A stretch of 64,000 nt of DNA from an uncultured Candidatus Poseidoniales archaeon (GCA_905182715.1 CAJJCP010000015.1:11170-75169); one strand, 5' to 3'. Numbered from the stretch's first letter, positions 38,265 through 51,816 are shown. The notes: a model not told the origin generated them from the sequence alone. Numbers and translations are program-made.

Positions 38265-38800
38265 GTTTGTCGGGTACAGCCATAGCAGTTCGAATCGAAA
38301 ACCAATTGGTTCGTTTTATTCCTCCGTCTCCAATCGACCAACAAGCCGTTATTTCACAAGTCGGTGGTCAAGAGACCAGCGGAGTTGTCATCAAAGTACT
38401 CGATAGCCCTCGTGCAACACTTGTAATCGACAGAGAAGGTCGTATCACCGTCCATGGCACGCATCGCGTTGAAGCGGCTCGTGCTGCTGCAAAGGAATTG
38501 ATGCTCCGTCTTGGTTTGAACGATTCCGGTTTGGAAACCGAATTAGGCCCCGTAGTTGCTTCTTTTGATTTCGGTCAACCATTGAATGTTCAACAATTGG
38601 TCGGAAACTTCGGCGCAGGTACAGCATCTTTCGATGAACGACTTGGATGCAGTGTTCTTGAAGACACTCGGCACAATCTTACCATCCATGTGTGGCCAAA
38701 TGGCCGTTGTATCGTTCCTGATGCACGTCAACAAAATATTGTGGCTATGGCTGCAGTGTATTGGAGAAACAAATTGAAAGAACAGAATCTCTTCATTTAA
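38261..38800 (+). CDS. Highly divergent TBP-fold (TATA-box-binding-protein-like) two-repeat protein
   Basis: At 179 aa it has two tandem repeats that align by eye to archaeal TBP. Repeat 1 is VRIENQLVRF...ATLVIDREGRITVHGTHRVEAARAAAKEL. Repeat 2 is PVVASFDFGQPLNVQQL...LTIHVWPNGRCIVPDARQQNIVAMAAVYWRNKL. The canonical FPG(L/V)I motifs are missing. The ATG overlaps the upstream stop (ATGA). Confidence 0.4.
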   Translation: MSLSGTAIAVRIENQLVRFIPPSPIDQQAVISQVGGQETSGVVIKVLDSPRATLVIDREGRITVHGTHRVEAARAAAKELMLRLGLNDSGLETELGPVVASFDFGQPLNVQQLVGNFGAGTASFDERLGCSVLEDTRHNLTIHVWPNGRCIVPDARQQNIVAMAAVYWRNKLKEQNLFI

Positions 38801-38881
38801 ATCCCGAATGAGCACTCATATTGTAATTTCTCCCCATGCGTTGAAATTGCATGAACTCCAGCGTTTGAATGAGGGTCGTCT

Positions 38882-39769
38882 ATGCAAGAGAGTGTGAATT
38901 GGACTGGCCCGATACTGGACAATCATTTCCACTTGAACCGAAATGGTCGTTTTCTTGAAGCAGCTCGTGACTTCAAGCATGCAGGTGGCACCGACATTGT
39001 CTTGGTTCACTGCCCTGACTTTTCAGCCCCTCCTACAACGAAAAAAGGCCATACTGAAACGTATGCAGATACTGTGAAAATGGCGGAAGAGGTGCGCAAG
39101 GAAGTTGAACTTGGAGTACGTGTTGTTCTCGGGCCGCATCCTGCTGCATTCGCCCATCAATTTACAGCTTGGTTAGAGGAGTCCGGTGAACATGGGGCTG
39201 AACGTGCGGTGGAGAATTACCGAGAAAGTATTGATGCAGCCTTGGATTTTGTTCACGAAGGTAAAGCCCATGCCATTGGCGAAGTCGGTCGCCCACATTG
39301 GCCGGTTAGTGAGGACATTTGGGAATTGTCAAATACGCTCTTATTGGAAACAATGCATATGGCTCAACAAGAGGGTATTGCTCTTCAATTACATGTTGAA
39401 GGTGAACTTGAAACTACGTACCGTGACCTTGCGTCCATGGCTGAAAAAGCCGGGCTTGAGAAAAACCGATTAGTACGCCATTACGCTCCCGCTAATGTCT
39501 CCAAAGAAATTACACAAGGCCTTACTCCAAGTGTATTAATCGGTAAGGGGGCTCTTGAAGAATTGATGTCCACTGTCGAATCCTGCTCCCATGGTTTTCT
39601 CTTAGAAACCGATTACATGGATGACTTGCGACGGCCAGGCGCAGTCTTAGGTCCAAAAACCGTACCGAAGCGCACACACCAATTATTGGAAGCCGGTTTA
39701 GATGAAGAATATCTTTGGAAGGCTCACCAAGATATCGCTGAAGAACTGTACGGGCCTAGCGTGAATTGA
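38882..39769 (+). CDS. TatD-related metal-dependent hydrolase/DNase (archaeal type)
   Basis: ILDNHFHLNRNG is the H.H metal site. IGEVGRPHW, LQLHVEGE and LLETDY are also present. Confidence 0.65.
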   Translation: MQESVNWTGPILDNHFHLNRNGRFLEAARDFKHAGGTDIVLVHCPDFSAPPTTKKGHTETYADTVKMAEEVRKEVELGVRVVLGPHPAAFAHQFTAWLEESGEHGAERAVENYRESIDAALDFVHEGKAHAIGEVGRPHWPVSEDIWELSNTLLLETMHMAQQEGIALQLHVEGELETTYRDLASMAEKAGLEKNRLVRHYAPANVSKEITQGLTPSVLIGKGALEELMSTVESCSHGFLLETDYMDDLRRPGAVLGPKTVPKRTHQLLEAGLDEEYLWKAHQDIAEELYGPSVN

Positions 39770-39809
39770 TAGGAGTCGTGGCTTTTGACTGCATAATGCC
39801 ATCACCTTC

Positions 39810-40418
39810 ATGTGTGAAAGCATATACCGACCACCGGTGGCAACTATTCGAAAGGCATTGATTCTTGGACTTGTCCTCAGTCTCTTTTTGGCACCTTGCC
39901 TTGTGACACCCGCCGCAGCACAAGGCTCACCGCTTCCCGCTGTCGAGTTAGATTGCGGTTCAGATCCAATCATGGATGTCCATCCTACATCGGATGCTGA
40001 GGCCTCAGTGATCTGCACCGTTACCAACCCGACTTCAGCAAGCGAAGAGATCAGTATTTCAGAAGTTGAATGGGATGGGGTATTGGTGGAAATGTCCTTG
40101 AGCGAAGATAGTTTCACGCTTGGTGCTGGTGAAGAAGATACTTTCGAGATTCGTTTTATCGGTCAGACGAAAATCCCAGCAACAGTCCAACATTCCTTCG
40201 AGATTGAAGCCAAGGTAGAATCTTGGAATGGTCTTCCTTACGGACAATTGCCTGAAGATGGATTTTGGGTTGTCAATACCTCTCATATTGGCGACTTAAA
40301 GATACAAAGTTACGGTATGGTCGAGTTACTGCTCTCCGATGTTACAACACGTTACATGGACACCAATGATGAAGTTGAATTCAGTTTTCAGGTGACCAAC
40401 AAGGGGAACTGCCGATGA
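39810..40418 (+). CDS. Surface protein fragment (signal peptide + beta-sandwich, CARDB-like end)
   Basis: This is the longest intact ORF of the disrupted gene. It ends ..VEFSFQVTNKGNCR*. Confidence 0.6.
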   Translation: MCESIYRPPVATIRKALILGLVLSLFLAPCLVTPAAAQGSPLPAVELDCGSDPIMDVHPTSDAEASVICTVTNPTSASEEISISEVEWDGVLVEMSLSEDSFTLGAGEEDTFEIRFIGQTKIPATVQHSFEIEAKVESWNGLPYGQLPEDGFWVVNTSHIGDLKIQSYGMVELLLSDVTTRYMDTNDEVEFSFQVTNKGNCR

Positions 40419-40690
40419 CAAATTGGAAGTTGTATTTCGCGAATGCTGCTGAACTTGAAGCGATGGGTTTCTCGTTCCCAGGGGGGAAACTCGTCAGTGA
40501 AAATGTCGATTACCAAGGAACTTCTTCTGTCAAAACACTCACTATCCGGGCACCTTCTGATGTGAGTTCAGACCTCCGAATGCCGTTATAGATCCGTGCT
40601 CAGAGTACAATTGATGATTCTGCTCCTTTCAGCGAGATAAATATCCAAATCGACATCAAAGCCTCCAGTAAATCTGGTGGTATCGATGGG

Positions 40691-40879
40691 TTGGACGCCT
40701 TAAGTTCGGATGATACCTTACTGTATGCTTCAATTGCAGGAGGGGCGATACTGGTCATTCTTTTCCTTGTTGTATTGGTCCGAGTCGTTTCCAAGAAGAA
40801 ACCAAAGAAGCAATCCAAGCCTAAACTGCATCAACCGATTATTCTGCCCGATGAACCTGTTCGAACTCTCTGGGGATGA
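40691..40879 (+). CDS. Surface protein fragment (TM anchor + basic stop-transfer)
   Basis: LLYASIAGGAILVILFLVVLVRVVSKKKPKK. The same frame is open upstream back to the TAG at 40589-40591. Confidence 0.5.
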   Translation: MDALSSDDTLLYASIAGGAILVILFLVVLVRVVSKKKPKKQSKPKLHQPIILPDEPVRTLWG

Positions 40880-41076
40880 AGAATTTGATGATTTCTTTTC
40901 AGACCTCGACGAGGAAACAGTCGAACGTGGATGAATTTGACGATTTATTGGATGAATTCTAACGGCTTCGGCTCTCGAAAGAGGGTTGCTGAACAACGGT
41001 TTTCATCGACTCAACTTAGGCAACAGTCATAGGTTGGGTGTGACGGCCAACACTTGCCCATTGGGTAGGTGCATTT

Positions 41077-41871
41077 ATGCTCAAATTACAAGGAAAGACT
41101 GCCTTCGTCTTCGGCGTTGCTAGTGAAGACTCCATCGCATGGGCTATTTGCCAACAACTTGCAGCAGCAGGCGTCACTTTGTACCTCGGATATCAGAAGC
41201 GTTTCATGAGTCGAGTTTTCCAGTTGAAGGATAAATTGCCTCAAATTGGTGGATTCTATCCTCTCGATGTGGCTGAAGATGCTTCAACCAGTGAGTTCTT
41301 TGAAGCATTTGAAAAAGAACACCCAGGGGTGAAAGCAGATATTCTGGTCCACGCAATTGGCTTTGCCCCACGGGCTTGTTTCGACCGGCCTATTCTTTTC
41401 GTTGAAAACGAGGACATCAATACAGCGATGACCATCTCAGCCAATTCCCTACAACGTTGTTTGAAGTATGCCTTGCCTTACCTCAATCCTGGTTCATCGA
41501 CCATCACGCTCACCTATGCTGCCTCAAATCGATTTGTACCAAATTATGGAATCATGTCGATGGCGAAAGCAGCACTCGAATGTTGGACGCGGGAATTGGC
41601 CTGCCACCTTGGGCCAGAAGGGCACCGAGTGAATGCCATCTCTTCAGGCCCTATACGGACCATTGCTGCAGGAGGAGTGCCTGGATTTGATAATATTCTC
41701 GACCATGTCGAAGCCAACTCCCCCCTCCGACGAAACGTCAGCCAAGAGGATGTAGCAGGTGCAGCTCTTTGGCTTGCAAGTTCTCTTTCGAGTGGCGTAA
41801 CGGGTCAATGCATCTATGTCGACGGTGGTTATTCCATCACGATGGTACCGCAAAGTATCATGAATGAATGA
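41077..41871 (+). CDS. fabI: Enoyl-[acyl-carrier-protein] reductase, FabI type (SDR)
   Basis: GKTAFVFGVASEDSIAWAICQQLAAAGVTLYLGY matches the FabI N-terminus. NYGIMSMAKAALE carries the Y..M..AK catalytic motif, and RVNAISSGPIRT is present. TAGGTG lies 5 nt upstream. Confidence 0.85.
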   Translation: MLKLQGKTAFVFGVASEDSIAWAICQQLAAAGVTLYLGYQKRFMSRVFQLKDKLPQIGGFYPLDVAEDASTSEFFEAFEKEHPGVKADILVHAIGFAPRACFDRPILFVENEDINTAMTISANSLQRCLKYALPYLNPGSSTITLTYAASNRFVPNYGIMSMAKAALECWTRELACHLGPEGHRVNAISSGPIRTIAAGGVPGFDNILDHVEANSPLRRNVSQEDVAGAALWLASSLSSGVTGQCIYVDGGYSITMVPQSIMNE

Positions 41872-41880
41872 GGTGAACAA

Positions 41881-42084
41881 ATGGTCAAAGATGCGAAAGG
41901 AAACGAAGTCGGAGGGCTTGAACAAGGTCCGTTTGAACCCATTGCAGTCATTGGCGTATCTGCATTGATGCCCGATGCTCCCGACATTGATGCATTTTGG
42001 CAGAACATTATCGACGCTAAAGTAAGTATTCGAACGATACCTGAGCATCGTTGGATTGGACCGGCTGAGCACTTTTTTCCGTGA
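41881..42084 (+). CDS. Ketosynthase fragment 1 (N-terminus)
   Basis: GGTGA lies 4 nt upstream. EPIAVIGVSALMPDAPDIDAFWQNIIDAKVSIRTIPEHRW is a typical type-I KS N-terminus. Confidence 0.7.
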   Translation: MVKDAKGNEVGGLEQGPFEPIAVIGVSALMPDAPDIDAFWQNIIDAKVSIRTIPEHRWIGPAEHFFP

Positions 42085-42481
42085 AGGCGGACCAGGGGAT
42101 ATCGAAGAAGGATTCACCTATGCACGTATTGGTGCGGTTGTTGAAGGCTATGATTTCGATTGGCGTCGTTGGAGATTACCTCCGGGGACATTACCTCAAA
42201 TTGACCTTGCTCAACAATGGGCTGTTTCAGTTGCTGCCTCAGCCATTGAACACGCTGGATATGATGGAGAATCCAAAGACATCGACCGACTACGTACAGG
42301 TGTTGCTTTTGCAAATGCGCTTGGCGGGGAAAACCGTAATTTGTCGAATATTCGAATTTATTCAAATCATACCAAAGAATTAGCGAAATCTCAAGGTATG
42401 CCCGAAGAAAACAGTGCTGCTTTTATCGACTCCATCGTAGAGGGAGCCCCTCGTATCAATGAAGACACAATGCCCTGGTGA
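42056..42481 (+). CDS. Ketosynthase fragment 2
   Basis: DFDWRRWRLPPGTLPQIDLAQQWAVSVAASAIEHAGY. Entry into this frame is at the T6 run at 42074-42079. Confidence 0.7.
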   Translation: MDRLSTFFREGGPGDIEEGFTYARIGAVVEGYDFDWRRWRLPPGTLPQIDLAQQWAVSVAASAIEHAGYDGESKDIDRLRTGVAFANALGGENRNLSNIRIYSNHTKELAKSQGMPEENSAAFIDSIVEGAPRINEDTMPW

Positions 42482-43427
42482 ACTTGCCAATGTTGTAGCA
42501 GGCCGTGTCTCGAATCTTCTCGACCTTCAAGGTCCAAATTTCGCCATGGATGCTGCATGTGCTTCATCGTTAGCAACGTTGATGGAAGCATGCCGGTTGC
42601 TGCAAATGCGCCAAGTCGATGTCATGATTGCTGGAGCTACAGATCGGAGTATGGATGCTCCAACCTTTGCTAAGTTTAGCGCAATAGGCGCTCTTTCTGC
42701 CTCTCACTCCACTCCCTTCGATGCTGGGGCCAACGGTTTCGTGATGGGGGAAGGTGCTGGAGCATTTGTCCTCAAGCGTCTTTCTGATGCAATCCGAGAT
42801 GGTGACGAAGTCCATGCTGTTATTCGCGGCGTTGGAGGCTCATCCGACGGTCGTGGCAAAGGTATCACGGCACCGAGTCAACGAGGTCAGATTCAGGCGA
42901 TTGCCCGTGCCTATTCACAAGCAGAATACGATGCTACAACCGTCGAATTAATCGAGGCTCACGGAACATCAACCAAAGTCGGCGATGCAACTGAACTTGG
43001 GACTCTTTCTTTGCTTTGGGATGGGATGCCAGCAGGCGATAACGTCGCCGTTGGCTCAATCAAGTCACAAGTCGGCCATTTGAAGGCTGCAGCCGGTATT
43101 GCCGGTCTCATCAAAGCGGTAATGGCACTCCACCACCGGACAATACCTCCGTCTGCAGGTTTCAACACTCCAAATCCTACAGTTGATTGGGACAGTAATC
43201 CATTCTTCGTTCCGACACAGGCGCGAGAATGGCCCCGTCCTACCGCACATCCACGCCGAGCAGGAGTTTCTGCTTTCGGATTTGGAGGAACGAATTATCA
43301 CGTTGCACTCGAAGGATTCGAACCTGAATACCATTCTGAATTAGCCCAACAATGGGACTTGCGATGGGATGCTTATTCGAAAACGAATCCTCTTCCATCA
43401 CAAAATCAATGCTGCCTCAATTCTTGA
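42459..43427 (+). CDS. Ketosynthase fragment 3 (catalytic core)
   Basis: PGELANVVAGRVSNLLDLQGPNFAMDAACASSLATL carries the active-site Cys (codon 42558-42560). EAHGTSTKVGD, SIKSQVGHLKAAAG and VSAFGFGGTNYH are also present. Confidence 0.85.
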   Translation: MKTQCPGELANVVAGRVSNLLDLQGPNFAMDAACASSLATLMEACRLLQMRQVDVMIAGATDRSMDAPTFAKFSAIGALSASHSTPFDAGANGFVMGEGAGAFVLKRLSDAIRDGDEVHAVIRGVGGSSDGRGKGITAPSQRGQIQAIARAYSQAEYDATTVELIEAHGTSTKVGDATELGTLSLLWDGMPAGDNVAVGSIKSQVGHLKAAAGIAGLIKAVMALHHRTIPPSAGFNTPNPTVDWDSNPFFVPTQAREWPRPTAHPRRAGVSAFGFGGTNYHVALEGFEPEYHSELAQQWDLRWDAYSKTNPLPSQNQCCLNS

Positions 43428-43477
43428 TGCTTCAGCCACCCCTTCAATGTCACATGAGGAAATGAAAGCGGTCGAAG

Positions 43478-44179
43478 GTGGAATTCTTCTCCTCTCTGCA
43501 GCGCGACCTTTCTTCTCTTCAAACGAAATTAGAAGCGGTTGGATTTACTGGGGCTCATTTCGATGAAGACCCTCGCGGATTGCGGCTCTCTTCTGCTTTG
43601 AATGCAGCCTCTTCTCATTACGATGCGTCAGAGGCATTTCGCATGTGCATCGTTGCTACTTCTTGGAATGAATATCACAAGCGCATCGAACTCGCGAGTA
43701 AAGCGATGAACGATCCTGAGAAATGGGGCTTCTTACAGGCTCAAGGCATTCTTTTGACCAACGACCCAGCACTCCATCCGAAAGCCAAAGTTGCGCACAT
43801 GTATCCTGGTCAAGGAAGTCAATATGTTGGGATGACGCATGATTTGCATCAGCGTTACACTGCAGTTCAGAAAGTATGGGCTCAAGCCGATGAAACAATG
43901 GTCGAGGTTCTCGACGGAGAGAGTTTGTCGAGTTTCGTTCTGCGTTCGAATCTCTCAAAAGAGCAACGAGTAGAGGCGGAACATAAACTCAAGCAAACCG
44001 AATATACTCAACCAGCCATGCTTACTGCTGATTTGGCAATAGAACGCGCACTCAATGACCATGGGCAGATGCCTGATATGGTTGCTGGGCATTCACTTGG
44101 GGAATATGCCGCGCTTGATGTCTGCAGGAATCTTAGACATGGACGGCGCCCTACGTGCTTCCGCAGCGCGAGGTACTGA
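43478..44179 (+). CDS. Acyltransferase fragment 1
   Basis: AHMYPGQGSQYVGM and MVAGHSLGEYAAL carry the active-site Ser. Confidence 0.8.
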   Translation: MEFFSSLQRDLSSLQTKLEAVGFTGAHFDEDPRGLRLSSALNAASSHYDASEAFRMCIVATSWNEYHKRIELASKAMNDPEKWGFLQAQGILLTNDPALHPKAKVAHMYPGQGSQYVGMTHDLHQRYTAVQKVWAQADETMVEVLDGESLSSFVLRSNLSKEQRVEAEHKLKQTEYTQPAMLTADLAIERALNDHGQMPDMVAGHSLGEYAALDVCRNLRHGRRPTCFRSARY

Positions 44180-44810
44180 AATGGGTTCAGTTGTCATTGA
44201 TGACAAGGGCTTGATGGCCAGTGTGATGGCGCCATACGATGACGTTGCATCTATCCTCGAATCAATAGATGGCTATGTTATTGCTGCCAACAAAAATTCA
44301 CCAAAAATGACCGTTATTGCAGGCGAAACTGAACCTGTTCAACAAGCGATGGTTTTGTTTGAAGAGAAGGGTTTCCAATGCGTACCTTTGGCAACATCAC
44401 ATGCTTTCCACTCCCGTATTGTTGCACCAGCCAATGAACCACTGCGCCGATTCCTCGAAAGTCTTGAGATCCGTTGGCCTTCAATTCCAATCACTGCCAA
44501 CGTTGATGGTTCATTCTATCCGATGGAAGGGGAAGATTCCAAAGCAGGAATCTTAGGGAAACTGGCACCTCAAATGGCTTCGGCAGTCGAATGGACGACA
44601 CAGATTGAAACCATGTATGCAGCAGGAGCACGTGCCTTCATTGAAGTCGGTCCAAAGCGAGCATTAACCATGTTTGCAGTTCAAATTCTAGAAGACCAAC
44701 CACATTTGCCAATTATGTCGAATCATCCAAAACAAGGTGGAATTGCAACATTCCTGAGCTGCACTTGGAACTTTGGCATTAGCAGGCCGTCAACCTCAAT
44801 GGCCAGCTGA
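44055..44810 (+). CDS. Acyltransferase fragment 2
   Basis: MSAGILDMDGALRASAARGTEM continues directly from GHSLGEYAAL. ATSHAFHSRIV is the HAFH motif associated with malonyl specificity. Confidence 0.8.
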   Translation: MTMGRCLIWLLGIHLGNMPRLMSAGILDMDGALRASAARGTEMGSVVIDDKGLMASVMAPYDDVASILESIDGYVIAANKNSPKMTVIAGETEPVQQAMVLFEEKGFQCVPLATSHAFHSRIVAPANEPLRRFLESLEIRWPSIPITANVDGSFYPMEGEDSKAGILGKLAPQMASAVEWTTQIETMYAAGARAFIEVGPKRALTMFAVQILEDQPHLPIMSNHPKQGGIATFLSCTWNFGISRPSTSMAS

Positions 44811-45204
44811 TGATTCATCAGTTCTAACTGAAGCCTTCCGTGCAGGCCCAATGGAGGCATACTACGCCACCTCGACACCTGTACATTCAACTGCTGAAAT
44901 GGATGACTTGAGGACACGTTCACGCCCCTTGCCTTCTACGGCAAGTCCAGTGCCAATTGTACAACAAGTCGTTGTTCAATCTGCAACGACTCAACCACTC
45001 GACCCTGAAGTGGCTGCTGCCAAAGCCAAGACTGCTTACATCGGCGACCGTCTTGCCGCAATAAGTGGTTATCCTGCCGGATTCTGTCATGGGATGGTCA
45101 ATCTCCGTCTTGGACTCGGCATGAGTGATGCAGAAGTTTCGTCTGTGATTCAAACGCTTTCAAGTGAAACACAAACCGATGCGCGATTGATATTTCAACA
45201 GTAG
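44773..45204 (+). CDS. Post-AT linker plus degenerate carrier-like domain
   Basis: LAAISGYPAGFCHGMVNLRLGLGMSDAEVSSVIQTL aligns to the downstream ACP repeats ([33 protein letters not shown]). It has no Ser or Thr at the attachment position. It ends at TAG 45202-45204. Confidence 0.55.
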   Translation: MALAGRQPQWPADDSSVLTEAFRAGPMEAYYATSTPVHSTAEMDDLRTRSRPLPSTASPVPIVQQVVVQSATTQPLDPEVAAAKAKTAYIGDRLAAISGYPAGFCHGMVNLRLGLGMSDAEVSSVIQTLSSETQTDARLIFQQ

Positions 45205-45235
45205 TTACGGCGAGCTGATTTGACGAAATGGGTCG

Positions 45236-46744
45236 TTGCTGCACCGTCTTCTTGGATTCCAAAAACCTCAGTACTTCAAGCAACAAAGACCCAAGTCGAA
45301 CCGGCTACAAGTCTCTGCTTCTGCAGGTTATGCAGACCGCCGCCTCACTGACCCGTATGTGATTACAGGTATTTCTCTTGGCCTTCCAGGTGGTGAACGT
45401 GTCTTCGATGAAGATACCTTTGAGCGATTGGTTCGTGGCGAAACTTGCCTTTCTGAAGTGAGTGATGAATACAAACAACGTCTTCTCGACAAAAACATTG
45501 TACGTCTCATCAAAGGCCGAGATGGTTCGGTAAATATGGACCAAGCCACAGAGTTTGGTGACATACCGCAACTTGCAGGTATTAAATCGGCATTTGACAT
45601 TTCTGAAGAATTCGGAATCGACCCAAAGGTTGTACTCGCCTGGGATATCACGACTCAACTTGCTGTGGCTGCAGGCCTTCTTGCACTTCGCGATGCAGCA
45701 ATTCCTCTTACGCCAGTTGAACAAATTGGCAAAGGCGGATTGCGTCTGATTCGTAATTGGCAAGTGCCTCAAATTCATCGTGAACGAACTGGAATTGTAT
45801 TTGCTTCTTGTTTCCCCGGACTTCAAATGGCTATGAAACACGCAAAGAGTAACGGCGATGATGGTGAAGGCCGATTCGACCGGCGATATTTATTCCAAAC
45901 CTTGAACATGGGCCATTCCCAATTCGCTCAATATTCCGGAATACGTGGGCCAAATACAACCATCAATCTTGCATGTGCTTCAACAACTGCAGCTTTTGGT
46001 GTGGCTGAAGATTGGCTCAACAGTGACCGTGTTGACCGAGTTGTAATTCTTTCAGCAGATGATGTCACAGGTGAAGATTTGTGGGAATGGATTGGAGGCG
46101 GATTTGCTGCTTCCGGTGCGGCTGCTACAGGCAATGTCATCGAAGAAGCAGCGTTACCATTTGACCGACGCCGTAATGGATTGGTGCTTGGCATGGGGGC
46201 GGCAGCATTCGTCATTGAACGCCATTCAGAAGCAAAAGCACGCGGTGTTCAACCGATTGCTGAACTTCTTGGAACCCGTACAGCTAATTCCGCGTTCCAT
46301 GGTACACGACTTGATGTTGACCACGTTGCAGAAACTGTCAATTCTTTTATGAGTTCAATGGAGCAACAATGGGGTATTAACCGGCATGTAATGGCACCAG
46401 ACACGGTCTTCTTTTCACATGAAACCTATACACCTGCCCGTGGAGGTTCGGCTCAATCCGAAGTACGAGCCTTGCGTGAAACGTTTGGAGAAAGTACTGA
46501 CAGTTTGGTTATTGCGAACACGAAAGGATTCACTGGCCATCCAATGGGTGTTGGAATCGAAGACGCGAGTATGTTCCATGGCATGAAGACAGGACGAATC
46601 CCTCCGATTGCCAATCATAAGGAAACGGATCCAGAACTTGGAAATCTCAACCTCTCCAAGGGTGGCGATTATTCAGACATTCCAATATGGATTACGCTTT
46701 GCAGCAGGTTTTGGTTCTCAAATGGCTCTTTCCTTGGTCCGTAA
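45236..46744 (+). CDS. Second ketosynthase (catalytically complete C-H-H, not a chain-length-factor)
   Basis: Motifs are VITGISLGLPGG, TINLACASTTAAFG (Cys), FFSHETYTPARGG (His) and NTKGFTGHPMGVG (His). The C-terminal end of the KS (YGLRFAAGFGSQMALSLVRKW) is read in the next frame, after a +1 shift near 46682. Confidence 0.8.
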   Translation: MLHRLLGFQKPQYFKQQRPKSNRLQVSASAGYADRRLTDPYVITGISLGLPGGERVFDEDTFERLVRGETCLSEVSDEYKQRLLDKNIVRLIKGRDGSVNMDQATEFGDIPQLAGIKSAFDISEEFGIDPKVVLAWDITTQLAVAAGLLALRDAAIPLTPVEQIGKGGLRLIRNWQVPQIHRERTGIVFASCFPGLQMAMKHAKSNGDDGEGRFDRRYLFQTLNMGHSQFAQYSGIRGPNTTINLACASTTAAFGVAEDWLNSDRVDRVVILSADDVTGEDLWEWIGGGFAASGAAATGNVIEEAALPFDRRRNGLVLGMGAAAFVIERHSEAKARGVQPIAELLGTRTANSAFHGTRLDVDHVAETVNSFMSSMEQQWGINRHVMAPDTVFFSHETYTPARGGSAQSEVRALRETFGESTDSLVIANTKGFTGHPMGVGIEDASMFHGMKTGRIPPIANHKETDPELGNLNLSKGGDYSDIPIWITLCSRFWFSNGSFLGP

Positions 46745-49700
46745 ATGGCCCGTAGTTGGAGAACGAATCGACGGGCAACGTTTCCTTGCATGGAATCGTT
46801 CTCTGGCCAATACTGAGGATGTTGTGATGCGTATTCTCGATAACAAACTTGTTGCTTACATCAATGGTGATGACCGTCTTCATGGAGGTGTACAAGGTGA
46901 ACCCTGGCCGATTACTGCGGCATGGGAAGGCAAACCTTCCGAAATTCTCCCTCCGCCTCTACCGGACCCTGTTCAAGCAACTCCACTCGTTGTAGAACCG
47001 ACTGTCCAACCCGTATCTGTAGTTCCTTCACCTGCTTCAAACGATGTAGATTTGGTTTCAACAGTGATTGAAGTCGTCGTCAATCACACTGGATATCCGG
47101 CAGATTTCGTTGAATTAGACCAAGACCTCGAGGGGGAGTTGGGCATTGATACTGTCAAGCAGGCAGAAATTATGGCGGACATCCGTGAACGGTTTGCCCT
47201 TCCTCTTGATGAAGAATTTGTCCTTTCAGACTATCCAACCCTCACTCATATGATTGGCTATATCCAAAAGATGACAACGGGCGGCATACCTCTTCCTATC
47301 GTAACCCCACTCCTCGCATCAGCAGTGAGTGAAGCCTCTGCTGCACCAACTCCCATCGACATTCCAGTTGAAGTTCCGCAGATTGAAAGCAATGAGCAAC
47401 TGGTGAACTTAGTTGTGGAAGTCGTCGTCCAGCATACCGGTTATCCTGCAGACTTTGTTGAACTTGACCAAGATCTCGAAGGTGAACTGGGCATTGATAC
47501 TGTGAAGCAGGCGGAAATTATGGCTGATATCCGAGAACAATTTACACTTCCATTGGATGAAGACTTTGTGCTTTCAGACTATCCTACATTGAACCATATG
47601 ATTGGTTACATTCAACGTATGCAAGGTGGCTCGCCAATGGTGAAACCAACTCCCACTTCATCCGTAGCCGCTCCTTCACCAATGCCAGCACAACCAATAA
47701 CGGTTCCATCACCATCACCAGCAGTTGAAGTTATTGAAGACTCAGATCTAACCTCGATTGTCGTTGAGGTCGTTGTCCAGCATACGGGTTATCCGAGCGA
47801 TTTCATTGAACTTGACCAAGACCTCGAAGGGGAATTAGGCATTGATACTGTGAAGCAGGCGGAAATTATGGCGGATATCCGAGAACGATTTACGCTTCCA
47901 CTCGATGAAGATTTCGTTCTTTCGGATTACCCAACGCTCAATCACATGATTGGTTACATTCGAAGAATGAAAGGAGGGACTTCAGCACCGATTGCGACAG
48001 TTGCGCCTGCACCAGTTGCTCCAGTACAACCAGCCACGGTAACTCCTCAACCGAGTACACCAACTGTTGTTGCACTTGCTCCTTCGACCGCAGATTCTAA
48101 CATCCAAGAACAATTAATTGAAGTTGTAGTTCGGCATACTGGCTATCCAAATGATTTCATTGAATTAGATCAAGACCTTGAAGGTGAACTGGGCATTGAT
48201 ACAGTGAAGCAGGCAGAAATTATGGCGGATGTTCGAGATATATTCGAACTTCCTCTCGATGAAGATTTTGTTCTTTCGGACCATCCTACCTTGAATCATT
48301 TCACTGCTTACATTCATCGAATGAAAGGTGGTTCGGCTGTTGAAGCTCCATCTGCGTCTGCAGTAGCCGAAGCCGCACCTGTTGCTGTGGCGCCCGTTGT
48401 TGAGCCAGTAGTGGCTGAAATTGAACGTCAAGAGAATTGTCGCCGATGGCAAGTTGAGGTAGAAGGCTGCCCCGGTACCAGTTCTTTGTTAGCACTCGAA
48501 GGAACCATCGTAGTTACTGATGATGGCTGGGGAATCGCAGAAGCCTTTTGCCAACGCGTAGAAGCACGTGGAATGCGTGCAGTGCGTATCGGGTTTGAAA
48601 GTGAAATACGGGACATGTCAAGCCATCAAGAAGCAGGCCGTACCGTTTATCGAGCAGACCCTGCAAATCCAGAACACCTCGCATTGGTCTGCAAAGAACT
48701 CGAACAATTGAATGTAGCGGGATTGGTTCACATGGCTCCTATGAAGCTCGCAGGAGCATCATGGGGTGATGACACACAGCCTTCGTCACAGATTGCATTA
48801 TCTGCACATGGGTATTTCTCTCTCCTCCAAGGATTAGATGCTCACCTTGCATCACGTAAAGATGGTCTTGTAGCCTCTGTGACTGCCATGGATGGACGGC
48901 ACGGAAACATCGGAGAGCGGTTCAACTCAGTTCAATGCGCTGCATCTGGCGTGACGAAATCATATTACTTTGAACAAACACATTTACGAATGCGTGCTCT
49001 CGACTTACATCCAGAACTTATTCTCGATGCAGACCAAGCCGCTGAACACATTGACTCAGACCTGTTTGAAATCGGTGGCGAAATTGAAATTGGATTAGAC
49101 CGCGATGGTCGCCGGTGGACACTTGTCGCCTTTGCTGAAGATCTTGAAAAGGAGATGACTCCATTGCAATCGGATGATACCTGGATTGTTTCAGGAGGTG
49201 GCTCTGGAGTTACTGCAGCCTCAATCATCGGCGTTGCATGCAACTCCCTCAATGCAGGGGCCCACTTTGCCCTCCTTGGACGTTCAACTCTGTTGGAAGA
49301 AACTGAAACGTGGGTTGAATGGTCTCCTTCTCGATTAGATGAGCAAAAGAACGCTCTTCGTGAAGAACTGATGGCAGCCAGTGAATCGGGTAAGGTTACG
49401 ATGGTTGAATGGAATACAGCTTGGCAAAAATATTCTCGCAGTCGAGACGTCTACATCACCATCAAAACGATTCAAGAAACTGGAAATGATGCATCGTATC
49501 ACTCAGTTGATGTCATGGACACCGATGGTTTGAAACAACTTGGTGCCTCTCTAGGCCGTCCTATTACCGGAATTATTCATGGTGCAGGTCTCGAAGATTC
49601 AAAGCTAGTTGCTTCGAAAGATTACAATGTATTTGACAAAGTTATCCGAGTGAAAATCGACGGATGGCACTCTCTTTTGTCGGCAGTAGAAGCCTCAAGT

Positions 49701-51056
49701 GGTGAACTTCGTTTTGCTTCATGCTTTACCAGTGTTTCAGGACGGTTTGGTAATAATGGTCAAACTGATTATTCTGCAGCAAACAGCGTTCTTGATGCAG
49801 AAATGGCTCGATTGACTGCAAGCGGCTCATGTCGCGCTGTTGCTATTGCATGGACAGGCTGGAGAGATGTCGGTATGGCAACTCGTGGCTCATTCCAAGC
49901 AGTATTTGATGCTGCAGGAATTGATACTATCTCCGTAGAAAAGGGTGTTGAAATCTTTGTTGATGAGGCACTACGTGGCGGTAAACGCCGAGTGCTTGGC
50001 TGTGGGAACCTTGGGACAATGGATGCATTTGACGCATTCCGCGAAGCCCCTCTCCGCCTTCCTGCAGAGATGACGAGCATTATCGCTGACCCGTTTCGCT
50101 TCCCTTTTATCGACAAAGTACTCTCCGTTGATGAACGACAATCATTGACGACCCAAACGACTCTTTCAGTTGCCGAACATCCATTCCTCTCAGACCATGC
50201 CATCGACGGAGTTCCGTATCATCCCGGTGTTATGGCTTTGGAGATGTTTGCAGAGAACGCCCTTTTGCTACGCCCATCAGCCTGCCTTGCCGGATTCGAA
50301 GATGTGTCGTTCGGTCTTCCTGTAAAACTCTTGAAAGGTGAAATGGCAGTTCGTGTTCATGCGGAATTGATTCGAGGTGACGGTGAGATGAGTTGGATTG
50401 CATGCCGTTTACTGTCCGATTTGTCAAATTCAAAGGGAGAGGTGTTTGGAGAACGAGAACACCACAAGGCCATTGTCCGAGTTGTTGAACGTCGAGAAGA
50501 CCTTGGTCCATTCTTGCAATCTGAAGTCGAGGCTTTGCCACAACTTGGCACGCCGGCACTTGGTGAATTAGTCGAACTACCATCGTTCATTTACCGACGT
50601 TATTTCCACGGCCCTCGTTTCCAATCTCACGGAGGAGTCCTTCGCGGCATAGGTGATGCAGAAACCCCTGGGGCAGATGGAATTGCTCTTATGCGTCACC
50701 AACTGCCAATATTGGACCAATTTGCCCTTGAGGCACAAGGCGAAGTCGTTCTTTTGGAATCGCTTCCAATGCTGATTGAGGCAGGTTTCCAAAACGCAGG
50801 TTTAGTCGCAATGGAATCCGAAGGTTTCTCTTCACTACCCGTCGGTATTGAATGGTCGTCGATGCTCCGAGTTCCAGAACGCAATGAAGTTCTTCGAATG
50901 AGAAGTCTTCGAACTGCAGTTGAAGATGCAGGTATCACAGTCCACGATGTAGTCGTGGTTGGTGATGACGATGCACCAGTTATTGCGCTCAAAGGATTAC
51001 GTCTCAAGAGCATGGCTCCTGTACCTGAGGGTGAGTCCTTTACCCTTGAGAGGTGA
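46608..51056 (+). CDS. ACP x4 - ketoreductase - PKS-type dehydratase (continuation of the second KS after a frameshift)
   Basis: There are four tandem carrier domains. The KR shows WIVSGGGSGVTAASIIG, IIHGAGLEDS and GQTDYSAANSVLD. The PS-DH shows HPFLSDHAIDGVPYHPGV (HxxxGxxxxP). The TTG at 46608 is only an ORF-caller artefact; meaningful sequence begins at about 46683. Confidence 0.85.
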   Translation: MPIIRKRIQNLEISTSPRVAIIQTFQYGLRFAAGFGSQMALSLVRKWPVVGERIDGQRFLAWNRSLANTEDVVMRILDNKLVAYINGDDRLHGGVQGEPWPITAAWEGKPSEILPPPLPDPVQATPLVVEPTVQPVSVVPSPASNDVDLVSTVIEVVVNHTGYPADFVELDQDLEGELGIDTVKQAEIMADIRERFALPLDEEFVLSDYPTLTHMIGYIQKMTTGGIPLPIVTPLLASAVSEASAAPTPIDIPVEVPQIESNEQLVNLVVEVVVQHTGYPADFVELDQDLEGELGIDTVKQAEIMADIREQFTLPLDEDFVLSDYPTLNHMIGYIQRMQGGSPMVKPTPTSSVAAPSPMPAQPITVPSPSPAVEVIEDSDLTSIVVEVVVQHTGYPSDFIELDQDLEGELGIDTVKQAEIMADIRERFTLPLDEDFVLSDYPTLNHMIGYIRRMKGGTSAPIATVAPAPVAPVQPATVTPQPSTPTVVALAPSTADSNIQEQLIEVVVRHTGYPNDFIELDQDLEGELGIDTVKQAEIMADVRDIFELPLDEDFVLSDHPTLNHFTAYIHRMKGGSAVEAPSASAVAEAAPVAVAPVVEPVVAEIERQENCRRWQVEVEGCPGTSSLLALEGTIVVTDDGWGIAEAFCQRVEARGMRAVRIGFESEIRDMSSHQEAGRTVYRADPANPEHLALVCKELEQLNVAGLVHMAPMKLAGASWGDDTQPSSQIALSAHGYFSLLQGLDAHLASRKDGLVASVTAMDGRHGNIGERFNSVQCAASGVTKSYYFEQTHLRMRALDLHPELILDADQAAEHIDSDLFEIGGEIEIGLDRDGRRWTLVAFAEDLEKEMTPLQSDDTWIVSGGGSGVTAASIIGVACNSLNAGAHFALLGRSTLLEETETWVEWSPSRLDEQKNALREELMAASESGKVTMVEWNTAWQKYSRSRDVYITIKTIQETGNDASYHSVDVMDTDGLKQLGASLGRPITGIIHGAGLEDSKLVASKDYNVFDKVIRVKIDGWHSLLSAVEASSGELRFASCFTSVSGRFGNNGQTDYSAANSVLDAEMARLTASGSCRAVAIAWTGWRDVGMATRGSFQAVFDAAGIDTISVEKGVEIFVDEALRGGKRRVLGCGNLGTMDAFDAFREAPLRLPAEMTSIIADPFRFPFIDKVLSVDERQSLTTQTTLSVAEHPFLSDHAIDGVPYHPGVMALEMFAENALLLRPSACLAGFEDVSFGLPVKLLKGEMAVRVHAELIRGDGEMSWIACRLLSDLSNSKGEVFGEREHHKAIVRVVERREDLGPFLQSEVEALPQLGTPALGELVELPSFIYRRYFHGPRFQSHGGVLRGIGDAETPGADGIALMRHQLPILDQFALEAQGEVVLLESLPMLIEAGFQNAGLVAMESEGFSSLPVGIEWSSMLRVPERNEVLRMRSLRTAVEDAGITVHDVVVVGDDDAPVIALKGLRLKSMAPVPEGESFTLER
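47043..48325 (+). repeat. Four in-frame tandem repeats (period about 348-354 bp) encoding carrier-protein domains separated by Pro/Ala/Val/Ser-rich linkers
   Basis: A near-identical DNA core, ..GACCAAGA(C/T)CT(C/T)GA(A/G)GG(G/T)GA..GGGCATTGATAC(T/A)GT(C/G)AAGCAGGC(A/G)GAAATTATGGC.., begins at about 47121, 47469, 47817 and 48171. Confidence 0.9.
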
Positions 51057-51057
51057 G

Positions 51058-51816
51058 ATGATGGCATTTGAGGAAATTTTTCCTCCACATCAACTCCCAG
51101 TCCGGTCTCTGTGCTTTCGTTGCCCTGTTGAAGCACGTGAGCTCGAACAGGTAACGCTTGCTTCTGTTGATGAAGTCGCTACTTTCGCCGTTGATAAACG
51201 GCGTGATGAGCATTTGTCTGGACGTTGGCTTTTGGCACAAGCGCTCGATCGTTGGGGTCTTGACCCCACTCAACTCGAAGTACGTCGGACTGAATTGCGT
51301 GCTCCAGTTCTCGCCTACCTCTCCGGAATCTGGGTCAATACCCCTCTTCCTTCGATGAGTATTGGCCATGCCGGAGGCTGGGCTTATGTTGCGTTAATCG
51401 AACCTGGTTGGTCTATTGGGATTGATGCTGAACCAGCCGAACGTGGAATCGCTTCAAACGCGTTTGATATGATGGCGAAAGGGGATGAATTACTTTGGTT
51501 ACAGAAAAACCCTGAGCAAGCGATTCAGCTTTGGACAGCAAAGGAATCTGTTCAAAAGGCCATGCAAATGGGGATGCACCTCAACCCTCGTAAAATTGAA
51601 ATTCCAATTGGACTAGGTGTTGTAAATATTTCAATTGAAAATTCAAAAATTCAATTGCAAAGTTGGGCTTTTCTAGGTTCAAGGATTGCGCTTGCATGGC
51701 GCCAAGGTTCAGTCGGTTTAAGAACCTCTGAAGATGATCTGTTAGATGTGACGAAAAAAGCGATGAGTGAACAAGAATGGGGTGTCGGCTGTAAAACCAG
51801 TCGAGGGAATGTCTGA
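51058..51816 (+). CDS. Sfp-type 4'-phosphopantetheinyl transferase
   Basis: Motifs are SIGHAGGWAYVAL, IGIDAEP and LWTAKESVQKAMQMG (the W/F..KES..K motif). AGGTGA sits just upstream of ATGATG at 51058. The ORF is open from 50959 and overlaps the megasynthase end. Confidence 0.8.
   Translation: MMAFEEIFPPHQLPVRSLCFRCPVEARELEQVTLASVDEVATFAVDKRRDEHLSGRWLLAQALDRWGLDPTQLEVRRTELRAPVLAYLSGIWVNTPLPSMSIGHAGGWAYVALIEPGWSIGIDAEPAERGIASNAFDMMAKGDELLWLQKNPEQAIQLWTAKESVQKAMQMGMHLNPRKIEIPIGLGVVNISIENSKIQLQSWAFLGSRIALAWRQGSVGLRTSEDDLLDVTKKAMSEQEWGVGCKTSRGNV

What the first reader, a model, noticed from the sequence alone, without database searches (positions are those of the whole stretch)
41077..51816. Complete ACP-dependent type-I FAS/PKS (pfa/hgl-like) cluster with its own FabI and PPTase inside an archaeal gene neighbourhood
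The genes are co-directional and tightly spaced. They are a FabI enoyl reductase, then a KS (DAACASS / EAHGTST / SQVGHLK) with a malonyl-type AT (GQGSQ, GHSLGEY, HAFH). Next comes a second, catalytically intact KS fused to four tandem carrier domains, a KR and a PKS-type DH (HxxxGxxxxP). An Sfp-type PPTase (GIDAEP, WTAKESVQK) closes the cluster. Together these supply every activity needed for iterative ACP-dependent acyl-chain synthesis. The multi-ACP layout is the one known from bacterial PUFA (pfa) and heterocyst-glycolipid (hgl) secondary-lipid synthases. Both flanks carry archaeal-type genes (TatD-like and TBP-fold upstream; thermosome, and further away Hjc, MC1 and DacZ). Archaea build isoprenoid ether lipids and generally lack ACP, PPTases and type I/II FAS. 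A self-contained ACP megasynthase here is therefore unexpected, and its product is unknown. The domain order does not match canonical PfaABCD: KS-AT / KS-ACP4-KR-DH with a trans FabI, no FabA-type DH/isomerase, and no TE or reductase release domain.
Basis: partly seen in the sequence, partly recalled or inferred. Interest (0 to 1): 0.88.

Follow-up and report, generated by a model that had tools for sequence, protein, structure and literature searches.

The report
PfaA-like fatty-acyl synthase in marine archaeon
This is a bacterial-style, carrier-protein-dependent fatty-acyl chain synthase with its own reductase and activating enzyme, conserved at one chromosomal spot across the abundant Marine Group II archaea; it matters because archaea are thought to lack such machinery, although this particular copy carries 11 single-base frameshifts that are probably assembly errors.

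Summary
The domain calls hold: FabI (41077-41871), KS, malonyl-type AT, a second KS with an intact Cys-His-His triad, four ACPs, KR, PKS-type DH, and an Sfp-type PPTase (51061-51816).

1. KS-AT-KS-ACP4-KR-DH is one gene of about 3,056 codons (41881-51056), not two. It is a single ORF in 28 of 29 related genomes.
2. In this window the gene is broken by 11 one-base indels. The gene upstream has 4 more plus a stop codon. None of these occur in three related assemblies. Substitutions on the window lineage are mostly synonymous (130 against 32). All indels are 1 bp and 12 of 15 are insertions, so consensus error is the likelier cause (about 80%) and decay the less likely.
3. The layout is not unprecedented. 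It matches the "Type R" secondary lipid synthase of Shulse & Allen 2011 (KS-MAT-CLF-ACP3-6-KR plus PPTase), whose product is unknown.

The host is a Poseidoniales (Marine Group II) archaeon. At least 59 species genomes, including a single-cell genome and Mb-scale contigs, carry the cluster in the same synteny. Their KS2 sequences form one clade beside the bacterial homologues, which fits one old transfer. The archaeal version pairs the synthase with FabI, whereas bacterial loci carry an acyl-CoA-dehydrogenase/ETF set.

Family-wide, the ACP attachment serine is a threonine.

The parts
41077..41871 (+). FabI-type enoyl-ACP reductase (264 aa, intact). It is the stand-alone trans-acting ER of the system.
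   Evidence: Pfam PF13561 scores 238 bits. NCBIfam FabI models score about 228 bits, below their equivalog cut-offs. The Y-x6-K motif (YGIMSMAK) is visible in the translation. The protein is 72-95% identical and sits directly upstream of the synthase in every archaeal locus that reaches that far upstream. It is absent from 21 bacterial loci.
41881..51056 (+). One megasynthase gene, KS1-AT-KS2-ACP x4-KR-DH. It would be 3,056 codons, but here it is interrupted by 8 one-base insertions and 3 one-base deletions.
   Evidence: Removing or padding the 11 sites gives one open frame with no stop codon. That frame is 84% identical end to end with the 3,045-aa ORF of L014. The gene is a single ORF of 2,809-3,095 aa in 28 of 29 full-coverage Poseidoniales loci. 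The best NCBIfam hit is TIGR02813 PfaA at 932.8 bits for L014, against a cut-off of 1010.1.
41935..43326 (+). KS1 domain (DAACASS / EAHGTST / SQVGHLK).
   Evidence: Pfam ketoacyl-synt, Ketoacyl-synt_C and KAsynt_C_assoc hit three ORF pieces. The Cys-His-His triad aligns with FabF.
43799..44697 (+). Acyltransferase domain with malonyl-type motifs (GQGSQ, GHSLGEY, HAFH).
   Evidence: Pfam Acyl_transf_1 hits two ORF pieces. NCBIfam fabD scores 208 bits on the intact L001 orthologue.
45311..46678 (+). KS2, a divergent FabF-like ketosynthase at the position Shulse & Allen call CLF. It keeps Cys, His and His.
   Evidence: The best PDB sequence matches are FabF (E = 7e-26). C222, H370 and H410 are invariant across archaeal and bacterial members and align with the FabF triad. 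KS2 is 47-54% identical to the bacterial homologues.
47049..48332 (+). Four tandem ACP domains, each with the motif LGIDTVKQAE. A Thr sits where the phosphopantetheinylated Ser normally is.
   Evidence: Pfam PP-binding gives 4 stretches. The DNA repeats are about 83% identical. The Thr aligns with the Ser of PigH and S. coelicolor ACPs. Thr is found in 140 of 142 archaeal and 64 of 64 bacterial ACPs of the family.
49443..49868 (+). Ketoreductase catalytic subdomain.
   Evidence: Pfam KR scores 87 bits.
50103..51017 (+). PKS-type double-hotdog dehydratase (HxxxGxxxxP).
   Evidence: Pfam PKS_DH_N (34.6 bits) and PS-DH hit this stretch. The motif HAIDGVPYHP is in the translation.
51061..51816 (+). 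Sfp-type 4'-phosphopantetheinyl transferase (251 aa).
   Evidence: Pfam ACPS and 4PPT_N hit it. The start was set by the 251-aa gene in L001. The motif MSIGH fits the hShxH (P1b') motif that PMC3098273 reports for Types M-T.
40411..46680 (.). A patch of 15 window-specific one-base indels. The insertions are at 40411, 40438, 40862, 40926, 42072, 42473, 43500, 44114, 44757, 45212, 45305 and 46680. The deletions come after 43384, 43399 and 45183. There is also one nonsense codon at about 40589.
   Evidence: L001, L002 and L087 agree with one another against the window at every site they cover (L087 spans only 38738-43336, seven of the 15). There are no other uncompensated indels anywhere in 37068-61056. 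A codon-usage frame scan shows the frame hopping.

Best explanation
**What it is.** The locus is the Marine Group II (Poseidoniales) copy of a PfaA-family, Type R iterative type I fatty-acyl/polyketide synthase. It was acquired once from bacteria before the MGIIa/MGIIb split and has been kept at a fixed chromosomal site since.

**Shown here:**
- One giant protein carries KS1-AT-KS2-ACP(1-4)-KR-DH.
- A FabI gene lies immediately upstream and an Sfp-type PPTase gene immediately downstream.

**Inferred mechanism:**
- The PPTase primes the tandem ACPs. The attachment residue is a Thr.
- The AT loads malonyl units.
- The two catalytically equipped KS domains carry out decarboxylative condensations, probably dividing the work by chain length as the two KS domains of PUFA synthases do.
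- KR and DH process the beta-carbon, and FabI acting in trans reduces the enoyl intermediate.
- Repeated cycles therefore build a long, largely saturated acyl chain on the ACPs.
- No release domain is encoded. The chain is presumably passed directly from ACP to an unlinked acyltransferase (PlsC-like homologues are reported in MGII) or to a thioesterase.
- The product would then feed ester-linked or mixed lipids, or a specialised lipid.

**The frameshifts.** The 11 frameshifts in this window's copy are most likely consensus errors in the contig (about 80%) and not biological inactivation.
For: **Domains and motifs.**

**Single ORF.**

**Type R layout and PPTase motif.** PMC3098273.

**Archaeal host and vertical inheritance.**
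- Named Poseidoniaceae, Thalassarchaeaceae and Thermoplasmatota homologues appear.
- 59 Poseidoniales species loci, including SAG AG-404-K16, share the synteny big ORF-p273-TBP-like-TatD-FabI-synthase-PPTase.
- An 837-kb contig has PCNA, TFS, Nop and fibrillarin next door.
- 58 of 59 archaeal KS2 sequences are monophyletic beside the bacterial ones.
- Tetranucleotide correlation with the rest of the window is 0.918, against 0.924-0.963 for control segments, so the region is compositionally ameliorated.

**Selection.** Window-lineage substitutions in the synthase are 130 synonymous to 32 non-synonymous. FabI shows 25 to 1.

**Artefact reading of the indels.**
- All 15 are exactly 1 bp, and 12 are insertions.
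- They are absent from L001, L002 and the Tara scaffold L087 over the stretches those contigs cover.
- There are none in the 3' 4.4 kb of the same ORF, nor elsewhere in 24 kb.
- Some look like two alleles merged, as at 44757 and 46680.
- Other long-read 'pilon' contigs each split the same gene at a different point.

**Substrate supply.** An accC-type biotin carboxylase lies in the window at 25636-26976.

**Literature context.** MGII lack G1P dehydrogenase, have G3P dehydrogenase, and are reported to have PlsC homologues (PMC6461757, PMC6962369).
Against: - No product, expression or phosphopantetheinylation data exist for any Type R member.
- The carrier domains have Thr where every characterised ACP has Ser. 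Whether they can be primed is unproven.
- No release enzyme or acyltransferase is linked to the cluster.
- The degraded patch also holds a nonsense substitution and a slightly raised N/S ratio (0.25 against 0.15). It is the only such patch in the 64-kb window. Strain-specific decay is therefore not excluded.
- No contig from the same strain was found to test the indels directly.
- The NJ tree has no support values, and only the top 21 bacterial sequences were sampled.
- How universal the cluster is within Poseidoniales was not measured.
Confidence: 0.75

Rival explanations
1. The frameshifts are real. In this strain the synthase gene and the gene upstream of it are pseudogenes in the course of decay.
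For: The 15 indels plus a TAG nonsense codon cluster in two adjacent genes. The window-lineage N/S ratio is somewhat higher than in the relatives, 0.25 against 0.15, and 0.41 in the upstream gene. This is the only such patch in the window.
Against: - Substitutions on the same lineage are still 80% synonymous.
- The indel-to-neutral-substitution ratio is close to 1:1. All indels are exactly 1 bp and 12 of 15 are insertions. From general knowledge, this is the opposite of the multi-base deletion bias seen in prokaryotic pseudogenes.
- The 3' 4.4 kb of the same ORF, the PPTase and FabI carry none, where about 10 would be expected in the 3' part.
- The repaired frame has no stop codon in 3,056 codons.
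Confidence: 0.18
2. The cluster is a secondary-metabolite synthase. It would make a specialised lipid or polyketide such as a signalling, protective or surface lipid, not a supplier of membrane fatty acids.
For: All bacterial relatives are 'secondary lipid' synthases that coexist with FAS II, and the characterised types make glycolipid or phenolic-lipid tails (PMC3098273, PMC13291983). No acyltransferase is linked. Genome-mining tools classify it as T1PKS/hglE-KS.
Against: The cluster holds a fixed position in both MGII families and is under strong purifying selection. FabI is the best-conserved gene of the neighbourhood at 72-95% identity. Reported MGII genomics (G3P backbone, PlsC homologues) leaves a gap that fatty acids could fill. 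This rival concerns only the fate of the product and is compatible with the mechanism given above.
Confidence: 0.4
3. The cluster is bacterial DNA wrongly joined or binned to archaeal sequence, or a recent island.
For: GC content is 2.3 points higher and the tetranucleotide correlation slightly lower than for the rest of the window. Divergence from L001 changes sharply at about 47.0 kb, and short-read contigs break near 46.5 kb.
Against: The gene order is identical, including archaeal neighbours on both sides, in 59 species genomes from many studies, in a single-cell genome, and on contigs of up to 1.5 Mb. The nearest bacterial proteins are only 30-54% identical. The divergence step lies inside the synthase gene, between two archaeal alleles.
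Confidence: 0.02

Closest known systems
Type R secondary lipid synthase (Shulse & Allen 2011, PLoS One 6:e20146), found in Koribacter, Solibacter, Elusimicrobium and Roseiflexus
   Same: Both have one pfaA homologue with KS-MAT-(KS-like 'CLF')-ACP3-6-KR followed by a PPTase gene. The PPTase carries the hShxH motif. The nearest non-archaeal relatives found here are Acidobacteriota (Terriglobales, Bryobacteraceae), Elusimicrobia, Acidimicrobiales and Myxococcales. The ACP motif DTVKQAE is shared.
   Different: The host here is an archaeon with no known FAS II. A FabI gene is fused into the operon. Most of the bacterial loci examined here (11 of 14) instead carry an acyl-CoA-dehydrogenase-like gene directly upstream of the synthase; in the one locus annotated by Pfam (L070) ETF alpha/beta and an Fe-S/CCG protein precede it and a biotin carboxylase/BCCP protein follows the synthase. 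The 'CLF' keeps a full Cys-His-His triad. No product is known for any member.
PfaA of the omega-3 PUFA synthase PfaABCDE (TIGR02813)
   Same: PfaA is the best-scoring curated family. The KS-AT part matches profile positions 8-891 and the ACP-KR-DH part matches positions 1301-2343. Both have tandem ACPs with an LGID(S/T) motif and a dedicated Sfp-type PPTase, the PfaE equivalent.
   Different: An extra KS is inserted between AT and the ACPs. There is no PfaB, no PfaC (KS-CLF plus FabA-type DH/isomerases) and no PfaD (FMN-type ER). FabI is present instead, so cis double bonds are not expected. The score is 932.8 bits, below the 1010.1 cut-off.
Heterocyst glycolipid synthase (Hgl, Type F)
   Same: Both are pfa-like multi-ACP iterative synthases that lack FabA-type DH/isomerases and are expected to make a long saturated or hydroxylated chain.
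   Different: There is no HglC-type KS-CLF-AT protein, no PfaD-type ER, and no linked reductase or glycosyltransferase genes.
ACP-independent archaeal fatty acid synthesis (bioRxiv 10.1101/2024.07.05.601840)
   Same: Both would give an archaeon de novo fatty acids.
   Different: That system is ACP-independent and built from archaeal enzymes. This one is ACP- and PPTase-dependent and of bacterial origin.

Membership tests
Type R secondary lipid synthase (Shulse & Allen 2011) | A single pfaA homologue with the domain order KS-MAT-CLF(KS-like)-ACP(3-6)-KR | tested here: met
   The order is KS-AT-KS2-ACP4-KR(-DH) in one ORF once the 11 indels are repaired. The gene is a single ORF in 28 of 29 relatives.
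Type R secondary lipid synthase (Shulse & Allen 2011) | A PPTase gene directly downstream, carrying the P1b' motif hShxH | tested here: met
   The PPTase lies at 51061-51816. The motif MSIGH was read from the translation, and the motif definition comes.
Type R secondary lipid synthase (Shulse & Allen 2011) | The proximal KS groups with the Type R reference sequences in a KS phylogeny | not tested
   The reference sequences (Koribacter, Solibacter, Elusimicrobium, Roseiflexus) were not available here. Indirect support: the nearest bacterial homologues come from Acidobacteriota and Elusimicrobia and share the architecture.
Type R secondary lipid synthase (Shulse & Allen 2011) | 'Secondary' status, meaning it coexists with a primary FAS II in the host | not testable with these tools
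   Only loci of 27 kb or less were held, so whole-genome content of FAS II genes could not be checked. The literature states that archaea lack FAS I/II and ACP.
PfaA subfamily (NCBIfam TIGR02813) | A whole-protein score of at least 1010.1 bits | tested here: not met
   The intact orthologue L014 scores 932.8 bits. The window fragments score 535.6 and 392.6 bits. The bacterial relative L070 scores 1099.4 bits.
PUFA synthase system PfaABCDE | The companions PfaB (AT), PfaC (KS-CLF plus two FabA-type DH) and PfaD (ER) | tested here: not met
   No such domains were found in the cluster or within 8 kb in any archaeal locus. FabI is the only ER.
FabI enoyl-ACP reductase | An SDR fold of the FabI type with the Tyr-x6-Lys motif, and a score above the equivalog cut-off | tested here: inconclusive
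   Pfam PF13561 scores 238 bits, above its cut-off. The motif YGIMSMAK is present. The top 12 NCBIfam hits are all FabI models, but at 166-228 bits they fall below their cut-offs of 299-477.
Sfp-type PPTase | The ACPS domain plus the N-terminal 4PPT_N domain, with the (W/F)xxKE(S/A)xxK motif | tested here: met
   PF01648 scores 33.6 bits and PF17837 scores 27.6 bits, both above their cut-offs. The motifs WTAKESVQK and GIDAEP are present.
Canonical acyl carrier protein domain | A Ser in the (D/G)xDS motif at the start of helix II, as the phosphopantetheine attachment site | tested here: not met
   All four domains have Thr (GIDTV), aligned with the Ser of solved ACPs. The same holds in 204 of 206 family ACPs, and a few MGIIb members have Ser.

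The most novel reading that the evidence does not exclude
Marine Group II archaea, whose membrane lipids are still unknown, may make their own fatty acids with this bacterial-derived synthase and build them into G3P-based ester or mixed ether/ester membranes. That would be a natural crossing of the 'lipid divide' in one of the ocean's most abundant archaeal groups. In addition, the whole Type R family (at least 597 species genomes) may carry its growing chains on phosphopantetheine attached to threonine, a linkage I know of no precedent for.
Probability: 0.3. Interest if true: 0.85.

Novelty: new variant of a known kind. Interest (0 to 1): 0.62.

Why it matters
Current reviews and a 2024 preprint state that archaea lack FAS I, FAS II, ACP and ACP synthase. 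MGII genomes are known to lack G1P dehydrogenase and to have G3P dehydrogenase and PlsC-like genes. No culture and no lipid assignment exist for the group.

A conserved, self-sufficient, ACP-dependent acyl-chain synthase gives the mixed-membrane hypothesis a concrete, testable enzyme. The intact orthologues are three genes that can be expressed directly.

The cluster also gives the uncharacterised Type R family a natural 'minimal' version. FabI replaces the ACAD/ETF module, which could help assign that family's chemistry. It raises a clear biochemical question as well: can the cognate PPTase modify a threonine?

For annotation, the finding shows that the fragmented genes in this contig should not be read as two separate genes or as loss of function without read-level support.

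Tried and rejected
1. **A second degraded patch at 1-4860.** I suspected one because the region holds only short plus-strand ORFs, none with a Pfam hit. The codon-usage scan and a direct translation showed instead a minus-strand ORF of at least 1,448 aa that runs off the window start, which ORF listing does not list. Rejected.
2. **A same-strain contig to test the indels directly.**
   - The P0003 and P0005 contigs start just downstream of the patch.
   - L014 and L050 are only 75-78% identical at DNA level.
   - The one metagenome pattern scan returned a Tara scaffold that is 99.8% L001-like.

   No same-strain test was possible.
3. **Sub-rows.** The 'AT part' and 'KS2 part' rows were started out of frame and should be ignored. 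They only show what out-of-frame counts look like.
4. **Gene splits in other assemblies.** L001 splits between KS2 and the ACPs. L003 and L004 split between KS and AT. L037 also splits. I considered these as real gene boundaries and rejected that, because 28 of 29 loci have one ORF and L001's split rests on two bases found only in L001.
5. **Literature.** Ten searches found no paper dedicated to this cluster in MGII and none on Thr-linked phosphopantetheine. Villanueva et al. 2017 is not in the held library.
6. **tRNA scan.** It found none in the window.
7. **Canonical PUFA or hgl synthase membership.** Rejected; see the membership tests.

Full report
**1. What is in the sequence**

Between 41077 and 51816 all coding signal is on the plus strand.

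- A FabI-type SDR lies at 41077-41871 (PF13561, 238 bits).
- Ketosynthase pieces lie at 41881-43427.
- Acyltransferase pieces lie at 43478-44810.
- A second ketosynthase lies at 45236-46744.
- Four PP-binding domains, a KR and a PKS-type dehydratase lie in 46608-51056.
- ACPS plus 4PPT_N lie in the last ORF.

The quoted motifs are all present in the translations. An alignment with E. coli FabF shows that both ketosynthases keep the Cys-His-His triad. That triad is invariant in KS2 across archaeal and bacterial relatives.

The flanks carry these genes:

- a thermosome that passes its NCBIfam cut-off
- Hsp70
- HMG-CoA synthase
- an M28 peptidase
- TatD
- a very divergent TBP-fold protein
- further away, Hjc, a DacZ-like cyclase, succinate dehydrogenase and an accC-type biotin carboxylase

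**2. The genes are fragmented here, and the true gene is a single ORF**

The KS-AT-KS region is seven ORF fragments in changing frames. Two syntenic contigs were retrieved, L001 (137 kb) and L002.

A three-way alignment shows 15 single-base indels unique to the window. L001 and L002 agree against the window at each one.

- Twelve are insertions, at 40411, 40438, 40862, 40926, 42072, 42473, 43500, 44114, 44757, 45212, 45305 and 46680.
- Three are deletions, after 43384, 43399 and 45183.
- A Tara Oceans scaffold, L087, also lacks the seven that fall within the stretch it covers (38738-43336).

Removing the eight insertions and padding the three deletions inside 41881-51056 gives one open frame of 3,056 codons with no stop. 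It is 84% identical end to end with the 3,045-aa ORF of the nearest species representative, L014.

In 28 of 29 Poseidoniales loci with full coverage, the synthase is one ORF of 2,809-3,095 aa. It lies between a FabI gene of about 270 aa and a PPTase gene of about 250 aa.

The splits seen in some long-read 'pilon' contigs fall at different places. L001's split rests on two bases found only in L001.

**3. Error or decay?**

I polarised substitutions using L001 and L002. The window lineage has 130 synonymous and 32 non-synonymous changes in the synthase. That is a ratio of 0.25, against 0.15 in the other two lineages and about 13-27 for out-of-frame controls. FabI shows 25 to 1. The gene therefore evolved under strong purifying selection along essentially the whole branch.

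Several features are hard to reconcile with natural decay:

- There are about as many indels as excess non-synonymous changes.
- Every indel is exactly 1 bp, and 12 of 15 are insertions.
- None fall in the 3' 4.4 kb of the same ORF, in the PPTase, or anywhere else in 37-61 kb.
- Two sites, 44757 and 46680, look like two alleles merged into one.

From general knowledge, natural decay is deletion-biased and its indels vary in size. These features fit consensus errors in a stretch where strains differ.

Other observations show that this locus is strain-heterogeneous in the sampled populations:

- The window is 5-8% divergent from L001 up to about 47.0 kb and 0.3% divergent beyond.
- Short-read contigs end or have gaps at about 46.5 kb.

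Some evidence points the other way. The upstream choice-of-anchor-T gene also carries a TAG nonsense change, and this is the only such patch in the window. I put artefact at about 80% and real strain-specific decay at about 18%. Only the reads can settle it.

**4. Whose genome is it?**

A protein search with the 1,482-aa ORF returned hundreds of homologues. Where named, they come from Candidatus Poseidoniaceae, Poseidoniales, Thalassarchaeaceae or Thermoplasmatota MAGs. Some sit on contigs of up to 1.6 Mb.

A scan of one genome per GTDB species found at least 597 genomes that encode the KS2 hallmark.

- The top 59 are Poseidoniales. MGIIa are 72-92% identical and MGIIb are 57-61% identical.
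- These include the single-cell genome AG-404-K16.
- Next come Acidobacteriota, Acidimicrobiales, Myxococcales and others at 47-54%.

In every archaeal locus the order big ORF-p273-TBP-like-TatD-(anchor-T)-FabI-synthase-PPTase is kept. On an 837-kb contig the neighbours are PCNA, TFS, Nop56/58 and fibrillarin.

A neighbour-joining tree of KS2 puts 58 of 59 archaeal sequences in one clade, with MGIIa and MGIIb sub-clades, beside the sampled bacterial sequences. The cluster's composition is only slightly atypical: tetranucleotide r is 0.918 against 0.924-0.963 for controls, and GC is 2.3 points higher.

Contamination, misbinning and recent transfer are therefore excluded. A single old bacterial-to-archaeal transfer before the MGIIa/b split is the best reading.

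**5. What it resembles**

NCBIfam's best model is PfaA (TIGR02813). KS-AT matches profile positions 8-891 and ACP-KR-DH matches positions 1301-2343, with KS2 as an insertion between them. The intact L014 protein scores 932.8 bits, just under the 1010.1 cut-off. An acidobacterial homologue scores 1099.

Shulse & Allen (2011) define a Type R secondary lipid synthase as one pfaA homologue, KS-MAT-CLF-ACP(3-6)-KR, followed by a PPTase gene. They found it in Acidobacteria, Elusimicrobia and Chloroflexi, with no known product. That is this layout. The PPTase also carries their hShxH motif (MSIGH). That paper mentions no archaea.

The archaeal version differs in its partner genes. FabI is always adjacent in archaea and never adjacent in the 21 bacterial loci. 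In 11 of 14 full-length bacterial loci an ORF of about 555 aa lies directly upstream of the synthase; Pfam identified it as acyl-CoA-dehydrogenase-like in the two loci tested, L070 and L082. In L070 it is preceded by ETF beta and alpha and an Fe-S/CCG protein, and the synthase is followed by a biotin-carboxylase/BCCP protein; ORFs of matching sizes recur in several other loci. I infer that FabI replaced an ACAD/ETF-type enoyl reduction module, or the host's FAS II FabI, when the system moved into a lineage without FAS II.

PfaB, PfaC and PfaD equivalents are absent, as are FabA-type dehydratases. It is therefore neither a PUFA synthase nor an hgl synthase.

**6. How it most likely works**

Shown here:

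- the domain set
- intact catalytic motifs
- the single polypeptide
- the dedicated ER and PPTase genes
- purifying selection

Inferred mechanism:

- The PPTase primes the tandem ACPs.
- The malonyl-type AT (HAFH) loads extender units.
- KS1 and KS2 condense, and KR, DH and trans-acting FabI complete each cycle.
- This yields a long, mostly saturated acyl-ACP.

With no thioesterase or reductase domain, hand-off to an acyltransferase is the simplest release route. Bacterial FAS II hands acyl-ACP to PlsX/PlsC in that way. A YciA-like thioesterase lies 10 kb upstream and an accC-type biotin carboxylase 14 kb upstream, but neither is linked to the cluster.

The literature reports that no MGII genome encodes G1P dehydrogenase, that nearly all encode G3P dehydrogenase, and that PlsC homologues and a 'putative fatty-acid pathway' exist (PMC6461757, PMC6962369). 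A 2024 preprint states that archaea lack FAS I/II, ACP and ACP synthase.

Whether the product feeds membranes or a specialised lipid is open. I weight the two about evenly.

**7. An unexpected family trait**

In all four ACPs the residue aligned with the phosphopantetheinylated serine of solved ACPs is threonine (LGIDTVKQAE).

- Threonine holds this position in 140 of 142 archaeal and 64 of 64 bacterial ACPs in the species loci.
- It also holds it in nearly all database homologues.
- A few Thalassarchaeaceae proteins have Ser at that position.

The Ser/Thr interchange at one position suggests that the hydroxyl is functional. I know of no documented Thr-linked phosphopantetheine, and one literature search found none. 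This remains untested.

**8. Novelty and score**

The cluster is present in public MAG annotations and is counted in antiSMASH surveys. Poseidoniaceae are reported with T1PKS and hglE-KS clusters, in a retracted paper. T1PKS is the second most common BGC class in marine archaeal genomes. Thermoplasmatota PKS transcripts have been detected. I found no study that analyses the cluster or links it to archaeal lipid biology.

I classify it as a new variant of a known kind: a Type R core with a FabI partner in an archaeal host.

The layout is published, the trait is order-wide and already visible in databases, and this particular copy is damaged.

Noticed in passing
window 47049-48332; also L007-L086 and P0001-P0120: The canonical phosphopantetheine-attachment Ser of every ACP domain is a Thr (GIDTVKQAE). 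This holds in 204 of 206 ACPs across archaeal and bacterial members. Only a few MGIIb proteins have Ser.
   Followed up: partly
L070 144-4922 and 14194-17448; L071, L072, L075-L077, L082-L086: In 11 of 14 bacterial Type R loci an ORF of about 555 aa lies just upstream of the synthase; Pfam showed it is acyl-CoA-dehydrogenase-like in L070 and L082. In L070 an Fe-S/CCG protein and ETF beta/alpha precede it, and a biotin-carboxylase/BCCP protein follows the synthase. None has FabI. In archaea FabI takes that place.
   Followed up: partly
window about 46500-47010: Divergence from L001 changes sharply here, from 5-8% upstream to 0.3% downstream. Three short-read assemblies end or have a gap at the same place (L002 N-run; L005 and L006 contig ends). 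This is either a recombination boundary between strains or an assembly switch, and it lies inside the synthase gene.
   Followed up: partly
window 39810-40960: The upstream secreted 'choice-of-anchor T' protein is 382 aa in L001. In the window it is broken by 4 one-base insertions and a TTG/CTG->TAG nonsense change at about 40589.
   Followed up: yes
window 25636-26976, 30786-31247 (minus strand), 58521-60164: An accC-type biotin carboxylase (546-560 bits, just under the cut-offs), a YciA-like hotdog acyl-CoA thioesterase and an HMG-CoA synthase lie within 15 kb of the cluster. They could supply malonyl-CoA or release the product, but they are not linked to the cluster in other genomes as far as checked.
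   Followed up: no
window 1-4344 (minus strand) and 31519-37446 (plus strand): Two very large ORFs have no Pfam hits. One is at least 1,448 aa and runs off the window start. The other is 1,975 aa. The second is conserved upstream of the cluster across Poseidoniales.
   Followed up: no
window 12118-13521 and 13415-16486: Two plus-strand ORFs overlap by about 100 nt in different frames. The first has PA14 and Laminin_G_3 domains. They may be one gene with a frameshift or two overlapping genes.
   Followed up: no
window 38261-38800: The 'TBP' next to the cluster is only a distant TBP-fold protein. It scores 23 bits against a cut-off of 181 in NCBIfam, and one Pfam repeat scores 36 bits. It is nevertheless syntenic with the cluster in all MGII loci.
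   Followed up: no
L007-L064 and the window: ACP copy number varies by lineage. There are 4 in the window and its nearest relatives (L014, L050), 3 in most MGIIa, 1-2 in MGIIb, and 3-6 in bacteria.
   Followed up: partly
L065: A 1.8-kb contig binned as Poseidoniales carries a KS2 (54% identity) that falls outside the archaeal clade. It may be a misbinned fragment.
   Followed up: no
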